The translations under genes were made by a program, and so were the position numbers. This document shows positions 24,938 through 31,482 of a DNA stretch of 32,512 nt, one piece after another. A model generated the notes under the pieces. It saw only the letters and a program-made list of their open reading frames with translations. It was not told where the DNA came from and ran no database searches. Each line of letters opens with the position of its first letter. Position 1 is the stretch's first letter. This stretch comes from Parvularculaceae bacterium (GTDB lineage: Bacteria; Pseudomonadota; Alphaproteobacteria; Caulobacterales; Parvularculaceae). The stretch lies in contig JACADX010000113.1 of NCBI GenBank assembly GCA_013389125.1, forward strand, positions 1 through 32,512. The letters run 5' to 3'.

Positions 24938-25408
24938 TCACCGGATATCCGCCGTTTGCCAGCTGTACCGCCAGTTCGGCTGCGTGACGATGGTGAACTT
25001 CGTGATGACGCTTGGATCGCCGCCGACGGCGGCGTCCGAGGGACGGTAGCGCCGGTCTTCGATCGCAAGCTTCCCGGACCGGACAAAGCGGTAATGGAGG
25101 TTTTCCGGCCCCTTGTACAAAAGAACGACGTCTTGCGGCTTGCCGTCGGGACCGACGGTGAACTTGTAATAGAGGCAGACATGCGGGCGTCCCGGCGCCC
25201 CGCGCGGCCAGTCATAGCCGCGGCCCTCCGCGACGAGCACCGGGCTTGCGCTGGTCCGCGGCGGCAACGTCGCCTCGAAAGCGTCGCATGCCGCCCGCGT
25301 CTCCGCAGCGAAAGCCTCCCACTCGTCGCTGAATTCAGCGTTCAGATCGGCGCCGAATAACGCCAGCACGGTTCCGAAAATTGCGCCGGCGAGCTTTCTT
25401 ATTCTCAT
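24938..25408 (-). CDS. Secreted protein with a TonB C-terminal-like domain
   Basis: Signal peptide MRIRKLAGAIFGTVLALFGADLNA; FTVGPDGKPQDVVLL...F-R---AI---RY-P pattern; SD GAGGTGGAG. Confidence 0.6.
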   Translation of the reverse strand: MRIRKLAGAIFGTVLALFGADLNAEFSDEWEAFAAETRAACDAFEATLPPRTSASPVLVAEGRGYDWPRGAPGRPHVCLYYKFTVGPDGKPQDVVLLYKGPENLHYRFVRSGKLAIEDRRYRPSDAAVGGDPSVITKFTIVTQPNWRYSWQTADIR

Positions 25409-25490
25409 TCTCCACCTCGGTGGCGGCGAATTTGAGCGCAAGTTTCGCAGTTTGGCGCGGCTGGCGTCAATGAACGCGAATTCAACCGGG

Positions 25491-26711
25491 CTAGGCCGCG
25501 TTCGAATGCTTCTTGAACTCGACCTTGGAGATCGCCCGGCAGTGCACCTCGTCCGGCCCGTCGGCGAGCCGGAGGGTGCGCAACGACGCATAAGCGCGCG
25601 CCAGGCCGAAGTCGGTCGTCACGCCGGCGCCGCCATGCGCCTGAATGGCGTCGTCAAGAACGCGCAAGGCGACGCGCGGCGCGGCGACCTTGATCATGGC
25701 GATCTCCGCCTGCGCCGCCTTGTTGCCGACCGTGTCCATCATCCACGCCGCCTTGAGGGTCAGAAGGCGCGCCATTTCGATGTCGATTCGCGCCTCGGCG
25801 ACGCGCTGCTCCCAGATCGAGTGCTTGTAGATCGGCTTGCCGAACGCTTCGCGCGTCAAGAGGCGCTTCACCATCTTCTCAAGCGCGACCTCCGCCGCGC
25901 CGATCGTCCGCATGCAGTGGTGAATGCGTCCCGGTCCGAGCCGGCCTTGCGCGATCTCGAAGCCCCGTCCTTCGCCGAGCAGCATGTTCTCCTTCGGCAC
26001 ACGGACGTTTTCGAGGACGATCTCCATATGGCCGTGCGGCGCGTCGTCGTAGCCAAAGACCGGAAGATGGCGGACGATCTTGACCCCCTTGGCGTTCGCC
26101 GGAACGAGGATCATCGACTGCTGGGCGTGCGTCGGCGCGGTTTTGTCGGTCTTGCCCATCACGATGTAAATCTTGCAGCGCGGATCGCCTGCTCCGGACG
26201 ACCACCATTTGCGGCCGTTGATGACGTAGTCGCCGCCGTCGCGGCGGATGTCGGTTTCAATGTTCGTCGCGTCGGAAGAGGCGACCTGCGGCTCGGTCAT
26301 CAGGAAAGCGGAGCGGATTTTCCCGTCGAGAAGCGGCTGCAGCCATTCCTCCTGCTGCGCCGGCGTCCCGTACTTCATCAAGACTTCCATATTGCCGGTA
26401 TCGGGCGCCGCGCAGTTGAAAACCTCGGGCGCGATATGGCAGCGGCCGGTCAGTTCGGCGACAGGCGCATAATCGGCGTTCGAAAGCCCCGGCCCGAATT
26501 TCGGATTGGGGTGAAACATGTTCCAGAGGCCCTCGGCCTTGGCCTTGGCTTTCAGTTCCTCGATAATCGGCGGAACTTTCCATCGGCCTTCGGGACCGAA
26601 GGCCTGATGCTGGCGCTCATAGATTTCGTCGCCCTCATAGACATGCTTGTCCATGAACGCGCCAACGCGCGCGAGATAGTCGTTGCAGCGGGCGGAATAG
26701 GCGAAATCCAT
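25491..26711 (-). CDS. Acyl-CoA dehydrogenase (ACAD10/11-like)
   Basis: [58 protein letters not shown]; SD AAGGAG. Confidence 0.95.
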
Positions 26712-26824: not shown

Positions 26825-27682
26825 ATGCCTGATCGCGCCGCTAATGAAATCGCATCGGCGGTCCTAGCCGAGTTCGCCGACGCGCTTGAGGGCGCGGCGG
26901 CAAGACCGGTCATTATCGGCCTTGCCGGCGCTCAAGGCTCCGGCAAGTCGACGGTCGCGCGCCGTCTTGTCCAGCAATTGCGGGAGAAAGGCCGCCGGTC
27001 GGCGGCGTTGTCGATCGACGACTTTTATCACAGCCGGTCGGAGCGTCGGCGCATCGCAGCGACGCTGCATCCGCTGTTTGTGACGCGCGGCGCGCCGGGG
27101 ACGCACGACGCTGCGCTCGCGCTCTCCGTGCTAGACGCTGTTCGCAAGGGAGACGCGACGCCCGCGCCCGCCTTCGACAAGGCGAGGGACGAGCCGCTTC
27201 CCAGCAATCAATGGCCGATCATTCCGGCGTCGCTCGACGTGCTCGTCTTCGAGGGCTGGTGCCTCGGAGCGCGCCCCGAGGCGCCGGAGGCGCTTCGCAC
27301 GCCAATCAACATGCTGGAGCGGGCCTTCGACGCCGACGGCAAATGGCGGCGCGCGGTCAACGACGCCCTCGCCGGCGCCTATCAGGACCTCTTCGCCGCC
27401 ATCGACGCGCTCGTCTTTCTCCGCGCGCCGTCGTTCGAGATCGTTCGCCGCTGGCGAACGGAACAGGAGCGCGCGCTTGCCTCCTCGCCGCATGCAAGAC
27501 CTTCGCCCGGGCTCATGACAGCCGAGGAGATCTCATTCTTCATCCAGCATTTCGAGCGCATCACAGTGTGGATGATGAAGGACCTTCCGCAACGCGCGGA
27601 TCAGACGCTTTATCTCAATGAAAGGCGCCGGATCGTTCAGACGGCGGCGCGCTCGCGCCAGCCGGTTGAAGTACATTGCTGA
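26825..27682 (+). CDS. P-loop kinase, D-glycerate 3-kinase (GLYK)-like
   Basis: GAQGSGKST, SIDDFY, RGAPGTHD, FDKARD, FEGWC, WRTEQE, FIQHFERIT. Confidence 0.82.
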   Translation: MPDRAANEIASAVLAEFADALEGAAARPVIIGLAGAQGSGKSTVARRLVQQLREKGRRSAALSIDDFYHSRSERRRIAATLHPLFVTRGAPGTHDAALALSVLDAVRKGDATPAPAFDKARDEPLPSNQWPIIPASLDVLVFEGWCLGARPEAPEALRTPINMLERAFDADGKWRRAVNDALAGAYQDLFAAIDALVFLRAPSFEIVRRWRTEQERALASSPHARPSPGLMTAEEISFFIQHFERITVWMMKDLPQRADQTLYLNERRRIVQTAARSRQPVEVHC

Positions 27683-28781
27683 TCCATTCAAGCGCCAGCG
27701 CGTCAGCCTGCGCAATATCGCCCGCCTCGAGCGCGCCGAGCGCTTGCGGCTCGACGCGGCTGATGCTTTCGCGGATCATGTCCCGAAAGGACGGGTCACG
27801 CTTGGCTTTGATCTGCGCGTCAAGTCCGCTTTCGTACAGTCCCTTGGCGGAAATAGCGGCCGAGGGCGCTAAAAAGTCGACAGGCTTGAACAACGAAATG
27901 CAGGGCTGGATCGAGCCGGTGAACGCCGCCCGAGGCGGCGCGCCCAATTGAAGCTTCACAATCATCGAGCCTGTCGAGGCATGCGGTCGGAGGAGCCCGC
28001 ACGCATGCATGCAGATATCGCGGTTCGAACCGCCCGTAAATCCGTCGCCCGCCGAATGGCGGCGGAGCATGCCGGCGAGCGCTGCAAGCGTCATTGCGCC
28101 TGGCGCCGCGGCCGCAGCCGCCATTGACGTCGCGCGCCGGTCGGCGGCGCAGGCAAGTCTTGGCATCGCGAAAGCTTCATGGCGCGCCTTGAAGTCGCCG
28201 GCCGCGCCTTTCGAAGCGCGGTCATGGTCCGCGCGAATGGTGTACGTATTCGAGATCGACCACGCGTCATCGACGCGTTTCATCGCCCAGTCGCGCCCGG
28301 CGGTCTCAAGGACAATGATCGTATCCGGATCAGCGATAAGGAAACTGTTGTCGTAACGAAAGCGCTTGTCGCGATAGCCGGCGGGACCGCCTTGTCCGTA
28401 TTTCTCCAGCAAATCCGCAATGGTGCGCGCCGCTTCCGGCGCCGTCGCCGCGCGTTCGAGCGCGAGGCGAACGAGATCCATGCCGAGCAGCGCCTCGCCG
28501 CCTCTCAGCACGCTTCTCGAAAACACCGCCTCGTTCCCGACGGCGACGCCGGCGTCGTTGACCCCCATTTCGGCGCCCCACATCCATTGCGGCCTCGAGA
28601 TGACGGCGGCGCGCCTGTCGGGGACCTGATCGACATCGATATAGGTGCACTTGACGCGCGCGCGGCGATCGCCGCGAACCGCAGGAATAAGTTCGACGCG
28701 CTGAACCTCAGCCGGCTCGCGATCGGAATTCTTTGCAAACCATACGGCGCCCGCGCGCTTCAAAGCGAACGTATCGCACAT
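27615..28781 (-). CDS. Peptidase C69 / secernin-like Ntn-hydrolase
   Basis: N-terminal MCDT nucleophile, FAKNSDR-P-E-Q, ISRP-WMWGAEMGVND-GVAVGNEAV, LLGMDLVRLALER, YDNSFLIAD, ICMH. Confidence 0.9.
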   Translation of the reverse strand: MCDTFALKRAGAVWFAKNSDREPAEVQRVELIPAVRGDRRARVKCTYIDVDQVPDRRAAVISRPQWMWGAEMGVNDAGVAVGNEAVFSRSVLRGGEALLGMDLVRLALERAATAPEAARTIADLLEKYGQGGPAGYRDKRFRYDNSFLIADPDTIIVLETAGRDWAMKRVDDAWSISNTYTIRADHDRASKGAAGDFKARHEAFAMPRLACAADRRATSMAAAAAAPGAMTLAALAGMLRRHSAGDGFTGGSNRDICMHACGLLRPHASTGSMIVKLQLGAPPRAAFTGSIQPCISLFKPVDFLAPSAAISAKGLYESGLDAQIKAKRDPSFRDMIRESISRVEPQALGALEAGDIAQADALALEWISNVLQPAGASAPPSERSGAFH

Positions 28782-28784
28782 GCG

Positions 28785-30482
28785 TTATCCGGCCTCCGCG
28801 ATGCGCAGCCGCGCCAGCATCCGGAAGAGGCGCTCATTGCGCGCCGCCGCCTGCGCGAAATCCCGCTCAATGCGGCGCCCCTTCGCGCGCATCATGCCGA
28901 CAACCGCTTCCTTTTCGGCGCCGCTCCACGCGCCGATGTCCGGCGCGAGCGACACGATCGGCGCAAGCGCCGTGAACGCCCGCCGTTCCTCAGGCGTGAG
29001 ACTGTCAATGACGACCCCGAGCTTTTCCGCGACGCCTCGGGCAAGAGCCTTTGCCGCGGACTTGCGGTCGGCGCCGGCCGACGCCAGCGCCCGCGACGTG
29101 CAAGCGCTGACCGTCGCGAGCTGCGCTTCCGGGAAGGCGTCGCGCGCGTCAAACCCCGGCAGATCGAGAACAAGATCGCCCTGCGCAAGCGCCTTCAATG
29201 TCGCTTTGTCGCTCCGCTCCGCGTTCGGCTTTGCGAGCCGCGCCGCTTCGCGCGCCGCGCGTTTCCGGCGCGCCGCGGCGTCTGGGCGAAATCCCAGACG
29301 ATAATAGAACCAATAGGCGCCGCTCGCGATCGCTTCCGTGTTGCCCTCGCCGAATTGGTAGCCGTTGACGATGAATCGCTTGACGCCGTAGATCGTCGCA
29401 AAAGCCCGCAGCATTTCGACCCACAGATACGACGCTTCGCCGCCGCGAAACGGGTCAAAGATATTGATGCCGGTGTTCGCCTGCCGGTAAAGCGGCGTCA
29501 CGCCCCCATAGCCGATGGGAACGCCGTTCGAGATCAGGATATAGCCGGTGTTAGTTTCAAGGCTGAGCCTCGAGCTCGGCGCGACGCCGATCACCGCGAG
29601 CGCGACCCCCTCGCCAAGATCGCACCAGTAAACCTCGTCGGGGTTCGGATTTGAGATCGCGACAACCTCGCGGCAGCGCGCCGACAGGGCGGCTCGCGCG
29701 ACGTCGATGACCTCCTTCGCTCGCCGGCGGCCGAGCCTCACAATGCCGGAAAGCGGCTCTGCGATGCGCCGCGCCGGATCGGGCGGAGGCCGACGCAGCG
29801 ATTTCCGCAAGACGACCGGCGCCTTCGGAAGGATGTTCCGGGTCGTCGACCATTTAGAAGCCTGAAGACGCCATGCGATCGGCGGCTCCGCCATCGACCA
29901 GAGTTCGTCCGCTTGCGCCCCGGTCAGCGCCGCGGCGGATTCGTCCATGATCCATTGAAGGTCCGACCGCTTGTCCTTAGGGCGCGCCAGCGCCGTCCAG
30001 CCGCGCGCATCGTAATCGCCGCTTTCGAAAGCGTCGATCTCGGCGCGCCGCGCAATTGCGCGCAACACGGCGTCGAACGCAGGCGATTCCTCAAAACGCC
30101 GCCAGTCGATCTCGGCCTCGCCGCGCGCTCGCGCCGCGATCCACTTCGCGATAGCATAGGGGAAGACATGTCTCGACGCGGAGCCGGCGACGCCCGAATC
30201 GTCGAGCCTCGCCCGCGCCGCCTTCGGCAGGAGCCGGACCCAGACTTGAGTTTTGGCGAGTGCGGCGCGCGCGGCGCGCAAGGATTTGAGGTCGCCCGGA
30301 AAAGCGGCGATGAACAGCAGATCTTCGTGAAGGCGCATCAACGCCGCGGCGGTCCGCGGCGGCGCTTTTTCCGCGGCGGCGATAAGAGCCAGTTTTTTTT
30401 CCTCCGCGTCCTGATCGTACGCGTTTCGGACGCGCCGAAGCGACGGGCGTCTTGTCGAACTGGCGTTTGCGATTTTCGTCAT
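28785..30482 (-). CDS. Hypothetical protein (565 aa) with an internal GNAT-like segment
   Basis: Long ORF ending 3 nt before the C69 gene; residues ~313-400 read YILISNGVPIGYGG..INIFDPFRGGEA..VKRFIV..N-EA..WFYYRLGF; alternative ATG at 30512 overlaps the upstream stop. Confidence 0.8.
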   Translation of the reverse strand: MTKIANASSTRRPSLRRVRNAYDQDAEEKKLALIAAAEKAPPRTAAALMRLHEDLLFIAAFPGDLKSLRAARAALAKTQVWVRLLPKAARARLDDSGVAGSASRHVFPYAIAKWIAARARGEAEIDWRRFEESPAFDAVLRAIARRAEIDAFESGDYDARGWTALARPKDKRSDLQWIMDESAAALTGAQADELWSMAEPPIAWRLQASKWSTTRNILPKAPVVLRKSLRRPPPDPARRIAEPLSGIVRLGRRRAKEVIDVARAALSARCREVVAISNPNPDEVYWCDLGEGVALAVIGVAPSSRLSLETNTGYILISNGVPIGYGGVTPLYRQANTGINIFDPFRGGEASYLWVEMLRAFATIYGVKRFIVNGYQFGEGNTEAIASGAYWFYYRLGFRPDAAARRKRAAREAARLAKPNAERSDKATLKALAQGDLVLDLPGFDARDAFPEAQLATVSACTSRALASAGADRKSAAKALARGVAEKLGVVIDSLTPEERRAFTALAPIVSLAPDIGAWSGAEKEAVVGMMRAKGRRIERDFAQAAARNERLFRMLARLRIAEAG

Positions 30483-30501
30483 CCGGCGGCGCTCGCGCGA
30501 C

Positions 30502-30723
30502 CTATTCCTCATTTCGACTCGCTGCGTCGCGATCGCGAGGGCGGCGTCGCGCCAGCGGAAAGGGCGGCAGCCATGACTCGCGCCGAACCGTCCACAGTTC
30601 ATAGGACAGCGCCCCGTGAGGCTTGCGGCAATCGAGGCGGTGACATGATCCGACGCGGTAAAGTCGTCCCGTCGCCGACAGGCGCGCCGCGCCGCAAAGG
30701 CATCCGCCGGTTCGTTGGTCCAT
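30502..30723 (-). pseudogene. GFA/CENP-V family gene with an in-frame internal deletion
   Basis: MDQRTGGCLCG..RVGSCHRLDCRK-HGAL is fused directly to YELWTVRRESWLPPFP; the third CxxC is absent and CxC reads CHR; SD GGAGA. Confidence 0.75.
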
Positions 30724-30962: not shown

Positions 30963-31052
30963 TGGCGGACAGAGAGGGATTCGAACCCTCGAGACGGTTT
31001 CCCGTCTACACGCGTTCCAGGCGTGCGCCTTCGACCACTCGGCCACCTGTCC
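30963..31052 (-). tRNA. tRNA-Ser (anticodon GGA)
   Basis: 90-nt cloverleaf GGACAGG...CACGC-CT-GGA-AC-GCGTG, long variable arm, GGTTCGAATCC, encoded CCA. Confidence 0.98.
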
Positions 31053-31209: not shown

Positions 31210-31482
31210 ATGGCGGCGTTTCGCTTCATTTCGTGGATTCTTGTGGCGATCGCGATCGCCCTGCTCGGCGCGGACGCCGTATCGTCGATGGAAGCGGGCG
31301 AGCCGGTGATCCGGACATCGGCGGAAGTGCTCGCGCTTATCGGCGTCAATGGGCCGGCCGTCGCGGAGAATTCGCCGGGCGGCCTCGCAAAGGCGATCGG
31401 CACCGTTCTCAACCTGCCGCTCTGGGCGGTCGTCGGCCTCATCGGCGTCGTCATGACACTGATCTTCCGCCCGATGGAATAG
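31210..31482 (+). CDS. Small hypothetical membrane protein (90 aa)
   Basis: N-terminal TM ending GAD and C-terminal TM (VLNLPLWAVVGLIGVVMTLIFR); GC3-rich codons. Confidence 0.75.
   Translation: MAAFRFISWILVAIAIALLGADAVSSMEAGEPVIRTSAEVLALIGVNGPAVAENSPGGLAKAIGTVLNLPLWAVVGLIGVVMTLIFRPME

What the first reader, a model, noticed from the sequence alone, without database searches (positions are those of the whole stretch)
27615..30723. Candidate undescribed system: large cryptic GNAT-like protein coupled to a secernin-like Ntn-hydrolase
Seen: three same-strand, tightly coupled genes directly downstream of tRNA-Ser: a GFA remnant, a 565-aa unknown, then after a 3-nt gap the C69 hydrolase. At 29283-29546 the unknown shows the ordered GNAT elements: beta hairpin (YILISNGVPIGYGG), motif-A-like INIFDPFRGGEA, a helix, strand VKRFIV, then N-EA and FYYRLGF. 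The pyrophosphate loop is atypical and there is a YQFGEG insert. About 310 N-terminal and 165 C-terminal residues are unassigned. Known: GNAT folds form amide bonds and Cys Ntn-hydrolases cleave them. Inference: a writer/eraser pair for an N-acyl or peptidyl modification (metabolite, envelope or protein), possibly using a non-CoA donor such as acyl-ACP or aminoacyl-tRNA.
Basis: partly seen in the sequence, partly recalled or inferred. Interest (0 to 1): 0.75.

Follow-up and report, generated by a model that had tools for sequence, protein, structure and literature searches.

The report
Large orphan GNAT-fold acyltransferase family
This gene belongs to a large, unnamed protein family of uncultured bacteria that is predicted to carry an acyltransferase (GNAT) core and likely works alone on an unknown target; the peptidase next to it here is its neighbour in one small lineage only.

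Summary
The 565-aa ORF is real (dN/dS about 0.1 in its core), and AlphaFold (pLDDT 96) with Foldseek/VIA places a GNAT fold at residues ~245-442, between two helical regions with no specific fold match. It has no Pfam, NCBIfam, PHROG or PADLOC match. It heads a family of 1,358 clusters at 50% identity, seen in eight phyla; all 80 genome loci listed are MAGs. It is present in 20-44% of three uncultured groups and 0 of 400 sampled Pseudomonadota genomes.

The writer/eraser pairing fails its own test. The C69 hydrolase is adjacent in 4 of 220 homolog loci, all one gene-tree branch inside a larger shared synteny block, and C69 was found in 3 of 50 carrier genomes. One point for it remains: within the host genus the two genes co-occur (7 of 9).

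The motif-B Asn, Tyr and Arg/Lys used for pantetheine binding and catalysis are kept, while the P-loop is one residue short and carries a near-invariant Glu. Best reading: a stand-alone thioester-dependent (probably acyl-CoA) N-acyltransferase with a likely anionic acceptor. No earlier scan finding matched.

The parts
28785..30482 (-). 565-aa member (P0001) of a large unnamed family; no membrane segment
   Evidence: 611 homologs; 1,358 clusters at 50%; dN/dS 0.19-0.33; best Kyte-Doolittle 19-residue window 1.31
29157..29750 (-). Predicted GNAT domain, residues ~245-442: helix 252-267, R269-x-R271-E272, inserted hairpin 279-300, R305/E309, strands 312-341, short P-loop R346-G-G-E349-A-S, helix 350-365, strand 369-372, YQFG insert, N381, SGAxWFYY(R/K)LGF
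   Evidence: AF2 pLDDT 94-96; Foldseek E 2.7e-4 to SpeG 6d72; VIA Z 8.9, rmsd 3.2, 123 aligned to PseH 4xpl; HHalign 78% to a RimJ/SpeG-type profile
29808..30452 (-). N-terminal region, residues ~11-225: helical bundle plus a small three-stranded alpha/beta part; only generic helical-repeat matches
   Evidence: DSSP of model; VIA Z up to 8.0 to unrelated helical repeats
28809..29147 (-). C-terminal helical region, residues ~446-558, basic (median net charge +8), conserved W519, K/R524, K534, E539; fold not tested alone
27615..28781 (-). Secernin-like C69 Cys Ntn-hydrolase (388 aa, Cys2); neighbour in this lineage, not a family-wide partner
   Evidence: PF03577 23.4 bits against cut-off 23; homologs named C69/secernin; Cys2 in 98% of 120; adjacency 4 of 220
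30502..30723 (-). GFA (PF04828) remnant with an in-frame internal deletion of ~55 aa; not found (tblastn E<=0.01) at other homolog loci except one weak hit
30963..31052 (-). tRNA-Ser(GGA); no att-like duplicate of its end in the window; not a family-wide neighbour
26825..27682 (+). Convergent PRK/uridine-kinase-like P-loop kinase overlapping the C69 3' end by 68 nt; the hydrolase's steadier neighbour (7 of 8 same-genus C69 loci)

Best explanation
The 565-aa gene is a conserved member of a large unnamed bacterial family whose middle is predicted to fold as a GNAT domain, and it likely acts alone as an acyl-CoA-dependent N-acyltransferase rather than as a pair with the neighbouring C69 hydrolase. 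Shown: the gene, the family, purifying selection, mostly single-copy patchy presence, and no conserved neighbour. Predicted with high confidence: the GNAT fold, set between two helical regions. Inferred mechanism: (1) a pantetheine thioester, most likely acetyl- or another short acyl-CoA, binds in the beta4/beta5 cleft, with N381 on the pantetheine amides, R/K395 near the 3'-phosphate and the shortened R346-G-G/S-E349 loop at the diphosphate; (2) an amine acceptor carrying phosphate or carboxylate groups is held by R269, R271 and R305 with E272 and E309, the basic helical regions extending the site, which suits a macromolecular acceptor such as RNA or an acidic protein (about 40%) more than a small metabolite; (3) direct acyl transfer, with Y393 protonating the leaving thiolate. 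The C69 gene came to lie downstream once, in an ancestor within one Parvularculaceae-like lineage, and has been inherited with the surrounding block.
For: Fold. Motif B kept: N381 138/141, Y393 140/141, R/K395 139/141, G397 141/141. HHalign aligns N381 with the Asn found in 29 of 30 canonical GNATs. The roles of this Asn and of a Tyr general acid are described for PseH (PMC4363471, passages read); mapping Y393 on that Tyr is my inference. An atypical P-loop can still bind CoA (AAC(2')-Ic; PMC4964394 passage). Nearest structures are mostly CoA-dependent GNATs (SpeG, PseH, RimL). Stand-alone: C69 4 of 220 loci, ACP 0 of 220; the commonest neighbour cluster covers 20 of 217 loci and is a generic two-component domain; immediate neighbours are on the same strand in 77 of 135 upstream and 78 of 133 downstream cases; no longer fused form among 7,993 candidates (weak). 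Basic charge: above the neighbour median in 123 of 130 loci, pI 9.4-10 across GC classes. One origin of adjacency: 1 change on the tree, support 91/64. G018 keeps the gene between tRNA-Ser and the acyl-CoA dehydrogenase without C69, and G026 keeps C69 with only a C-terminal remnant of the gene.
Against: No activity, donor or acceptor was measured. The P-loop does not meet the Q/R-x-x-G-x-G/A consensus: it is one residue short by profile alignment (R346-to-F370 is 25 residues in 141 of 141) and has Glu at 349 in 135 of 141. Altered P-loops are described as typical of carrier-protein-dependent GNATs (PMC11685415 passage). The Asn and Tyr fit acyl-ACP as well as CoA. The top VIA-wide row is the non-enzymatic antizyme (Z 9.1, tied with the enzymes within 1). 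Within the host genus the two genes co-occur: 7 both, 2 GNAT-like only, 1 C69 only, 26 neither (Fisher p 3e-5; 6/1/1/8, p 0.009 among the 16 kinase-bearing genomes; kin are not independent), three of the seven carry both intact at separate loci, and close rpoB sisters lack both. The acceptor guess rests on sequence charge and conservation; I had no model coordinates to inspect the pocket.
Confidence: 0.55

Rival explanations
1. Stand-alone acyltransferase that takes its acyl group from the host's fatty-acid acyl carrier protein (as FeeM, SbzI, and from recall OlsB and LuxI do); the remodelled P-loop and basic helices would dock acidic ACP.
For: Short P-loop with near-invariant Glu; substituted P-loops mark carrier-protein GNATs (PMC11685415 passage); pantetheine-type Asn and Tyr kept; protein basic; conserved R399, R415, R423, K/R430 follow motif B.
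Against: No carrier-protein gene at 0 of 220 loci (not required if the housekeeping ACP is used); the loop keeps Arg (141/141) and Gly, unlike SbzI's GGSLVGL; R/K395 kept; the 50 best VIA rows are dominated by CoA-type GNATs.
Confidence: 0.17
2. The first reader's model, family-wide or limited to this genus: the GNAT-like protein writes an N-acyl amide that the secernin-like C69 hydrolase removes.
For: 3-nt gap, same strand; gaps of similar size kept in 4 relatives; within-genus co-occurrence 7 of 9 and 7 of 8, three cases unlinked; sisters lacking both.
Against: 4 of 220 loci, one tree branch, inside a larger synteny block; C69 in 3 of 50 carrier genomes plus one weak hit; 8 hydrolase-positive genomes of 400 lack the gene; each gene is seen without the other in the genus; a control gene, the kinase, also tracks both in the genus (p 0.049 and 0.012), showing a lineage signal.
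Confidence: 0.1
3. Aminoacyl-tRNA-dependent transferase of the FemABX / L,F-transferase kind.
For: Basic protein; non-canonical P-loop; FemA appears among the VIA rows (Z 7.6, rmsd 4.5, 140 aligned).
Against: One GNAT domain only, where FemA and FemX have two; FemX works without a general acid or base (PMC4964394 section 2.15), whereas the thioester-type Asn and Tyr are near-invariant here; FemA ranks 30th, over 1 Z below the best CoA-type rows.
Confidence: 0.08
4. Non-catalytic GNAT-fold regulator or CoA sensor that binds a partner protein, like antizyme or PanZ.
For: Antizyme (Z 9.1, rmsd 3.7, 120 aligned) and chain 4cry_B (Z 8.3, 21% identity; PanZ from recall) are among the top VIA rows; large helical surfaces.
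Against: 31 near-invariant residues cluster on both donor and acceptor sides of one cleft region, including the Tyr at the general-acid position; no partner gene is conserved.
Confidence: 0.07

Closest known systems
RimJ/RimL/SpeG/PseH-type acetyl-CoA GNATs (PF13302; PDB 6d72, 1s7f, 4xpl)
   Same: Predicted fold of residues ~245-442; beta3-beta4-helix-beta5 register; motif-B Asn, aromatic/Tyr, K/R-x-G-F.
   Different: Three times larger, with unassigned helical regions on both sides; inserted hairpin 279-300; P-loop one residue short with Glu; YQFG and five-residue SGA inserts; 7-21% structural identity; no Pfam match.
Carrier-protein-dependent GNATs (SbzI, FeeM)
   Same: GNAT fold with a P-loop off consensus; pantetheine-contacting positions kept.
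   Different: SbzI lies in a biosynthetic cluster with its carrier protein (PMC11685415 passages); this family has no carrier gene at 0 of 220 loci and keeps Arg/Gly in the loop.
FemABX and L/F-tRNA-protein transferase
   Same: GNAT fold with extra domains, basic surface, departure from the CoA loop.
   Different: Single GNAT domain; thioester-type Asn and Tyr kept; not the best structural matches.
Multi-domain macromolecule acetyltransferases (Pat/PatZ, TmcA, Elp3, NatA with its helical subunit; architectures recalled)
   Same: GNAT core with large accessory domains; Rv0998, SlPatA GNAT, Elp3 and NatE appear among generic hits.
   Different: No ATPase, radical-SAM, cNMP or ligase-like domain detected; accessory regions unmatched.
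Secernins / MEROPS C69 (for the neighbour)
   Same: N-terminal Cys nucleophile, PF03577 at the cut-off, homologs named secernin or C69.
   Different: Far below the PepD-type NF033678 cut-off (15.3 against 250 bits); secernin substrates are described as elusive (PMC9140057 passage).

Membership tests
GNAT fold superfamily | Mixed beta-sheet with flanking helices, beta4-helix-beta5 core | tested here: met
   Domain model pLDDT 94; 29 Foldseek hits E<=0.001; VIA rows Z 7.2-9.1, GNAT-fold chains
GNAT fold superfamily | Beta-bulge in beta4 and V-shaped splay between beta4 and beta5 | not testable with these tools
Canonical acyl-CoA GNAT (RimJ/SpeG type, PF13302) | P-loop consensus Q/R-x-x-G-x-G/A | tested here: not met
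   R-G-G/S-E-S/A-A, one residue short, Glu 135/141
Canonical acyl-CoA GNAT (RimJ/SpeG type, PF13302) | Motif-B Asn, general-acid Tyr, K/R-x-G-F | tested here: met
   N381 138/141, Y393 140/141, R/K395 139/141, G397 141/141, F398 136/141
Canonical acyl-CoA GNAT (RimJ/SpeG type, PF13302) | Pfam profile score above cut-off | tested here: not met
   0 hits for P0001; no GNAT family among 64 domain sequences; 1 of 86 members at E 0.028 to PF00583
Canonical acyl-CoA GNAT (RimJ/SpeG type, PF13302) | Acyl-CoA-dependent transfer | not testable with these tools
   Needs an assay
Carrier-protein-dependent GNAT (SbzI/FeeM type) | Substituted P-loop | tested here: inconclusive
   Loop is off consensus but keeps Arg and Gly; compare PMC11685415
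Carrier-protein-dependent GNAT (SbzI/FeeM type) | Dedicated carrier-protein gene in the locus | tested here: not met
   0 of 220 loci with an AcpP-based profile of 5 sequences; divergent peptidyl carriers could be missed
FemABX | Two GNAT domains | tested here: not met
   One GNAT domain; flanks helical
L/F-transferase, ATE1, MprF-type tRNA transferases | Specific structural match beyond the shared fold | tested here: inconclusive
   Not among the 50 rows shown; absence from the list does not exclude
GNAT + C69 writer/eraser system | Conserved co-location or co-occurrence across lineages | tested here: not met
   4 of 220 loci; 3 of 50 genomes; 0 of 8 hydrolase-positive genomes in a 400-genome sample
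MEROPS C69 / secernin-like (neighbour) | N-terminal Cys nucleophile and PF03577 match | tested here: met
   Cys2 98% of 120; 23.4 bits against 23
Known anti-phage systems (PADLOC 2.0) | Profile match | tested here: not met
   0 hits for 7 proteins

The most novel reading that the evidence does not exclude
The family is a new class of macromolecule-modifying enzyme: a stand-alone GNAT whose remodelled, Glu-bearing P-loop takes acyl groups from acyl carrier protein instead of CoA and whose basic helical shell puts them on RNA or protein. That would be an undescribed modification carried by a fifth to nearly half of the genomes of several abundant uncultured lineages and missed because model bacteria lack the gene.
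Probability: 0.15. Interest if true: 0.75.

Novelty: new variant of a known kind. Interest (0 to 1): 0.45.

Why it matters
It gives a fold and a testable catalytic hypothesis to a large 'hypothetical protein' family (1,358 clusters at 50% identity) that no profile library searched here recognises. The family is common in some uncultured Flavobacteriales, Ignavibacteria, Woeseia-like and Burkholderiales lineages but was not found in 400 sampled high-quality Pseudomonadota genomes. Its architecture (single GNAT in a basic helical shell, short Glu-bearing P-loop) has no match among the solved structures searched, so its donor and acceptor may be new.

Tried and rejected
Profile libraries: no match for P0001 in Pfam, NCBIfam, PADLOC or PHROGs; scattered single weak hits among 64 domain sequences and 86 full members. 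PDB by sequence: nothing credible; the 2g9w hit (E 0.006, helical, outside the GNAT core) is treated as chance. ESM Atlas: only unnamed clusters for the whole protein; for residues 240-445 two leads under 0.9, a phage GNAT-like domain and DUF1122. Mobile or viral origin: no relative in IMG/VR, plasmids or phages; GC3 0.78 like its neighbours and no att-like copy of the tRNA end; tRNA genes lie in a minority of family loci (19 calls in 160 loci, various tRNAs). Fusions: none among 7,993 longer candidates (weak evidence); shorter or split forms were not searched. Complex of P0001 (11-560) with the host AcpP: no answer, score 0.00 against a mark of 0.32. L/F-transferase, ATE1, MprF, FeeM and LuxI were not among the VIA rows shown. 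Expression: no RNA holder listed. Promoter and terminator scans: at chance level. rpoB tree: G021's row was misassembled (branch 7.6) and its position is ignored; 30 genomes entered the tree (29 of the 37 own-genus genomes plus G064). Earlier scan findings: nothing by sequence or place, three unrelated notes by words. Literature searches: 'GNAT + novel protein families + uncultivated + AlphaFold + acetyltransferase' 0 papers; 'Parvularculaceae + GNAT' 0; 'secernin + bacterial + C69' 1 review; two searches listed nothing relevant.


Full report
Observation. The three ORFs, their spacing and every quoted motif are in the sequence. On the minus strand: tRNA-Ser(GGA) 31052-30963, GFA remnant 30723-30502, the 565-aa ORF 30482-28785 (P0001), a 3-nt gap, and the 388-aa hydrolase 28781-27615 (P0002), whose end overlaps a convergent kinase by 68 nt. 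The GFA ORF matches both ends of a 130-aa Azospirillum GFA (71% and 67%) but lacks about 55 residues between them, including the second CxxC. P0002 is a secernin-like C69 protein: PF03577 at 23.4 bits against a cut-off of 23, homologs named C69 or secernin, Cys2 in 98% of 120 aligned sequences. The closest named relatives of both genes are Parvularculaceae MAGs, so the host is inferred to be of that kind.

The unknown is a real gene of a large unnamed family. It has 611 homologs among 7,996 scored candidates and 1,358 representatives at 50% identity with E<=0.001. Lengths of full members are mostly 550-600 aa. Rough dN/dS against three relatives is 0.19-0.33 overall and 0.08-0.12 in residues 252-400 (synonymous sites near saturation). 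No Pfam, NCBIfam, PADLOC or PHROG profile matches it; of 86 members scanned, one reaches PF00583 at E 0.028. Every source name seen is 'hypothetical protein', and the Atlas returns only unnamed clusters. All 80 genome loci listed (of 149 found) are titled MAG and fall in eight phyla by title. The gene was found in 9 of 36 same-genus genomes (two as fragments), 24 of 121 in the family of G087 (locus L045, which groups with Woeseiaceae rows), 52 of 117 in the family of G104 (L070, Flavobacteriales) and 47 of 151 in the class of G107 (L074, Ignavibacteria), nearly always once. It was found in 0 of 400 Pseudomonadota genomes drawn at 90% completeness or more. No relative was found in viral contigs, plasmids or phages.

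Fold. AlphaFold2 on 141 sequences gives pLDDT 96.1 and pTM 0.93. On the whole model Foldseek finds nothing at E<=0.001, but its best rows are GNATs (SpeG, RimL; E about 0.02), and VIA gives GNAT rows at Z 6.3-7.1 over residues ~245-445 mixed with generic helical repeats over 11-217. The domain folded alone (residues 228-450, 64 sequences, pLDDT 94) gives 29 Foldseek hits at E<=0.001 (best 2.7e-4, SpeG). Its VIA rows run from Z 9.1 to 7.2: antizyme 9.1 (rmsd 3.7, 120 aligned), PseH 8.9 (3.2, 123), spermidine acetyltransferases 8.6-8.8, RimL 8.4, and FemA 7.6 (similar). These Z values are middling and tied, so they establish the fold by agreement but pick no subfamily. The N-terminal region was tested only within the whole model and the C-terminal region barely at all.

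Active-site anatomy. A profile of 30 canonical PF13302-type GNATs taken from five genomes aligns to the domain with probability 78% (A1 columns) and 63% (A2), E 2e-5 and 7e-5 for the single comparison. The alignment puts a one-residue gap in the P-loop (F-R-G-[gap]-G-E-A-S against H-W-G-K-G-L-M-S) and a five-residue insert in motif B. The loop-to-strand distance is the same in 141 of 141 members. Column counts out of 141: R346 141, G347 101, G348 93 or S 40, E349 135, S/A350 136; Q376 140, G378 141, N381 138, W391 139, Y393 140, R/K395 139, G397 141. In PseH, Asn131 binds the pantetheine amides and Tyr138 is the proposed general acid (PMC4363471, passages). The P-loop consensus is Q/R-x-x-G-x-G/A, yet AAC(2')-Ic binds CoA with an atypical loop (PMC4964394, passages and section 2.15). 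Altered loops are called characteristic of carrier-protein GNATs such as SbzI and FeeM (PMC11685415, passages). So the donor is likely a pantetheine thioester; CoA is favoured by the kept Arg, Gly and R/K395 and by the structural neighbours, but ACP is not excluded. On the acceptor side R269, R271, R305, E272 and E309 are 94-99% conserved. The family is basic: median +2.2 to +2.9 charges per 100 aa against -2.2 to 0 for neighbours, higher than the neighbour median in 123 of 130 loci (136 examined, 6 without a neighbour of 200 aa or more; neighbours called by my own ORF picker). It has no membrane segment (2 of 141 reach a 19-residue hydropathy of 1.9). I infer an anionic, possibly macromolecular, acceptor.

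The pairing with C69. A profile of 120 secernin-like sequences run over six frames finds the hydrolase at 4 of 220 family loci (80 from GTDB, 80 from metagenomes, 60 from handles; not de-duplicated; 128 of the first 160 have at least 600 nt downstream). Those four and the window form one branch of a 76-row tree (1 change, support 91/64; five short loci left out). They also share the kinase and acyl-CoA dehydrogenase, and mostly MAPEG and cupin, so this is inherited gene order. Genome-wide I tested 50 of the 80 GTDB-locus genomes, leaving out the four adjacent ones and 26 others, among them L004 and L005. P0002 found two strong hits and one weak one, and PF03577 found two; together 3 of 50 have a clear C69. 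The Pfam search missed one of the P0002 hits, so it is insensitive to this subtype. In the reverse test 8 of 400 genomes carry the hydrolase and none of the 400 the GNAT-like gene. No other neighbour is family-wide: the largest cluster is 20 of 217 loci (two-component domains), and tight partners differ by lineage (ABC permease and truncated globin; SET protein and esterase; a flavin disulphide oxidoreductase; HesB).

Evidence for the pairing that remains. Among 36 same-genus genomes 7 have both, 2 the GNAT-like gene only, 1 the hydrolase only (its contig starts 39 nt upstream) and 26 neither (Fisher p 3e-5, or 4e-4 without the G026 fragment). Three have both intact at separate loci (G002, G017, G021), and rpoB sisters such as G016 beside G008 and G007 beside G017 lack both. 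Kin are not independent, linked genes are deleted together, and the kinase control tracks both genes too (p 0.049 and 0.012). Uncoupling is also seen: G018 has the gene between tRNA-Ser and the dehydrogenase with no C69 found (74% complete), and G026 keeps the hydrolase with only a C-terminal remnant of the gene. I leave 10% for a genus-level partnership.

Mechanism and comparison. Best reading (0.55): a stand-alone acyl-CoA-dependent N-acyltransferase, with the steps set out under Best explanation. It works like a RimJ/SpeG/PseH-type GNAT but is not a member of that family (P-loop consensus and Pfam score not met). It is not FemABX (one GNAT domain). Rivals: acyl-ACP donor 0.17, C69 partnership 0.10, aminoacyl-tRNA donor 0.08, non-catalytic regulator 0.07. 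The architectures of Pat, TmcA, Elp3, NatA, OlsB, LuxI and the identity of 4cry_B as PanZ are recalled, not from calls.

Novelty. I found no description of the family in the library searches; most subscription journals are not searched, and no supplementary files were read, so catalogues of novel families from uncultured taxa may list it unnamed. Papers seen: PMC4964394 (passages, section 2.15), PMC4363471, PMC11685415 and PMC9140057 (passages); all others as search listings only. Earlier scan notes gave nothing on this family. Verdict: a new variant of a known kind, a large cryptic GNAT family with unmatched accessory regions and an unusual donor loop; not a two-gene system. Interest 0.45.

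Noticed in passing
L001:6001-13659: A contig titled Ilumatobacteraceae carries the whole Parvularculaceae-type block (GNAT-like, C69, kinase, acyl-CoA dehydrogenase 86-89%, MAPEG, cupin, PEP mutase, RpoH 84-95%), several genes split across frames; probably a mislabelled bin.
   Followed up: partly
window 26825-27682: PRK/uridine-kinase-like gene convergent with C69 and overlapping it by 68 nt; strong hits in 16 of 36 same-genus genomes and next to C69 in 7 of 8.
   Followed up: partly
L063:8184-8642 and 10 other loci: A SET-domain protein lies directly beside the family gene on the same strand in 10 of 11 loci of one lineage, often with an esterase and a zinc peptidase.
   Followed up: no
L037:853-1248 and 15 other loci: A truncated bacterial globin follows the family gene directly in 16 betaproteobacterial-type loci, with an FtsX/MacB-type permease upstream and RmuC downstream.
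   Followed up: no
L332:3837-4571, L333, L369: A PIG-L de-N-acetylase lies directly upstream in three closely related loci (93-98% identical); a deacylase neighbour, but one event only.
   Followed up: partly
L090:1500-1700 (G026): Only a C-terminal remnant of the family gene survives, in a genome with an intact C69.
   Followed up: yes
L019, L029, L076, L063: Gemmatimonadota members fall in two places of the gene tree (beside Proteobacteria and inside Flavobacteriales), and one betaproteobacterial row falls among Bacteroidota: possible transfers or mixed bins.
   Followed up: no
window 24938-25591 and 31221-31482: Two ORFs without Pfam match (217 aa, minus strand; 86 aa hydrophobic, plus strand) that have homologs at the same locus in relatives.
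   Followed up: no
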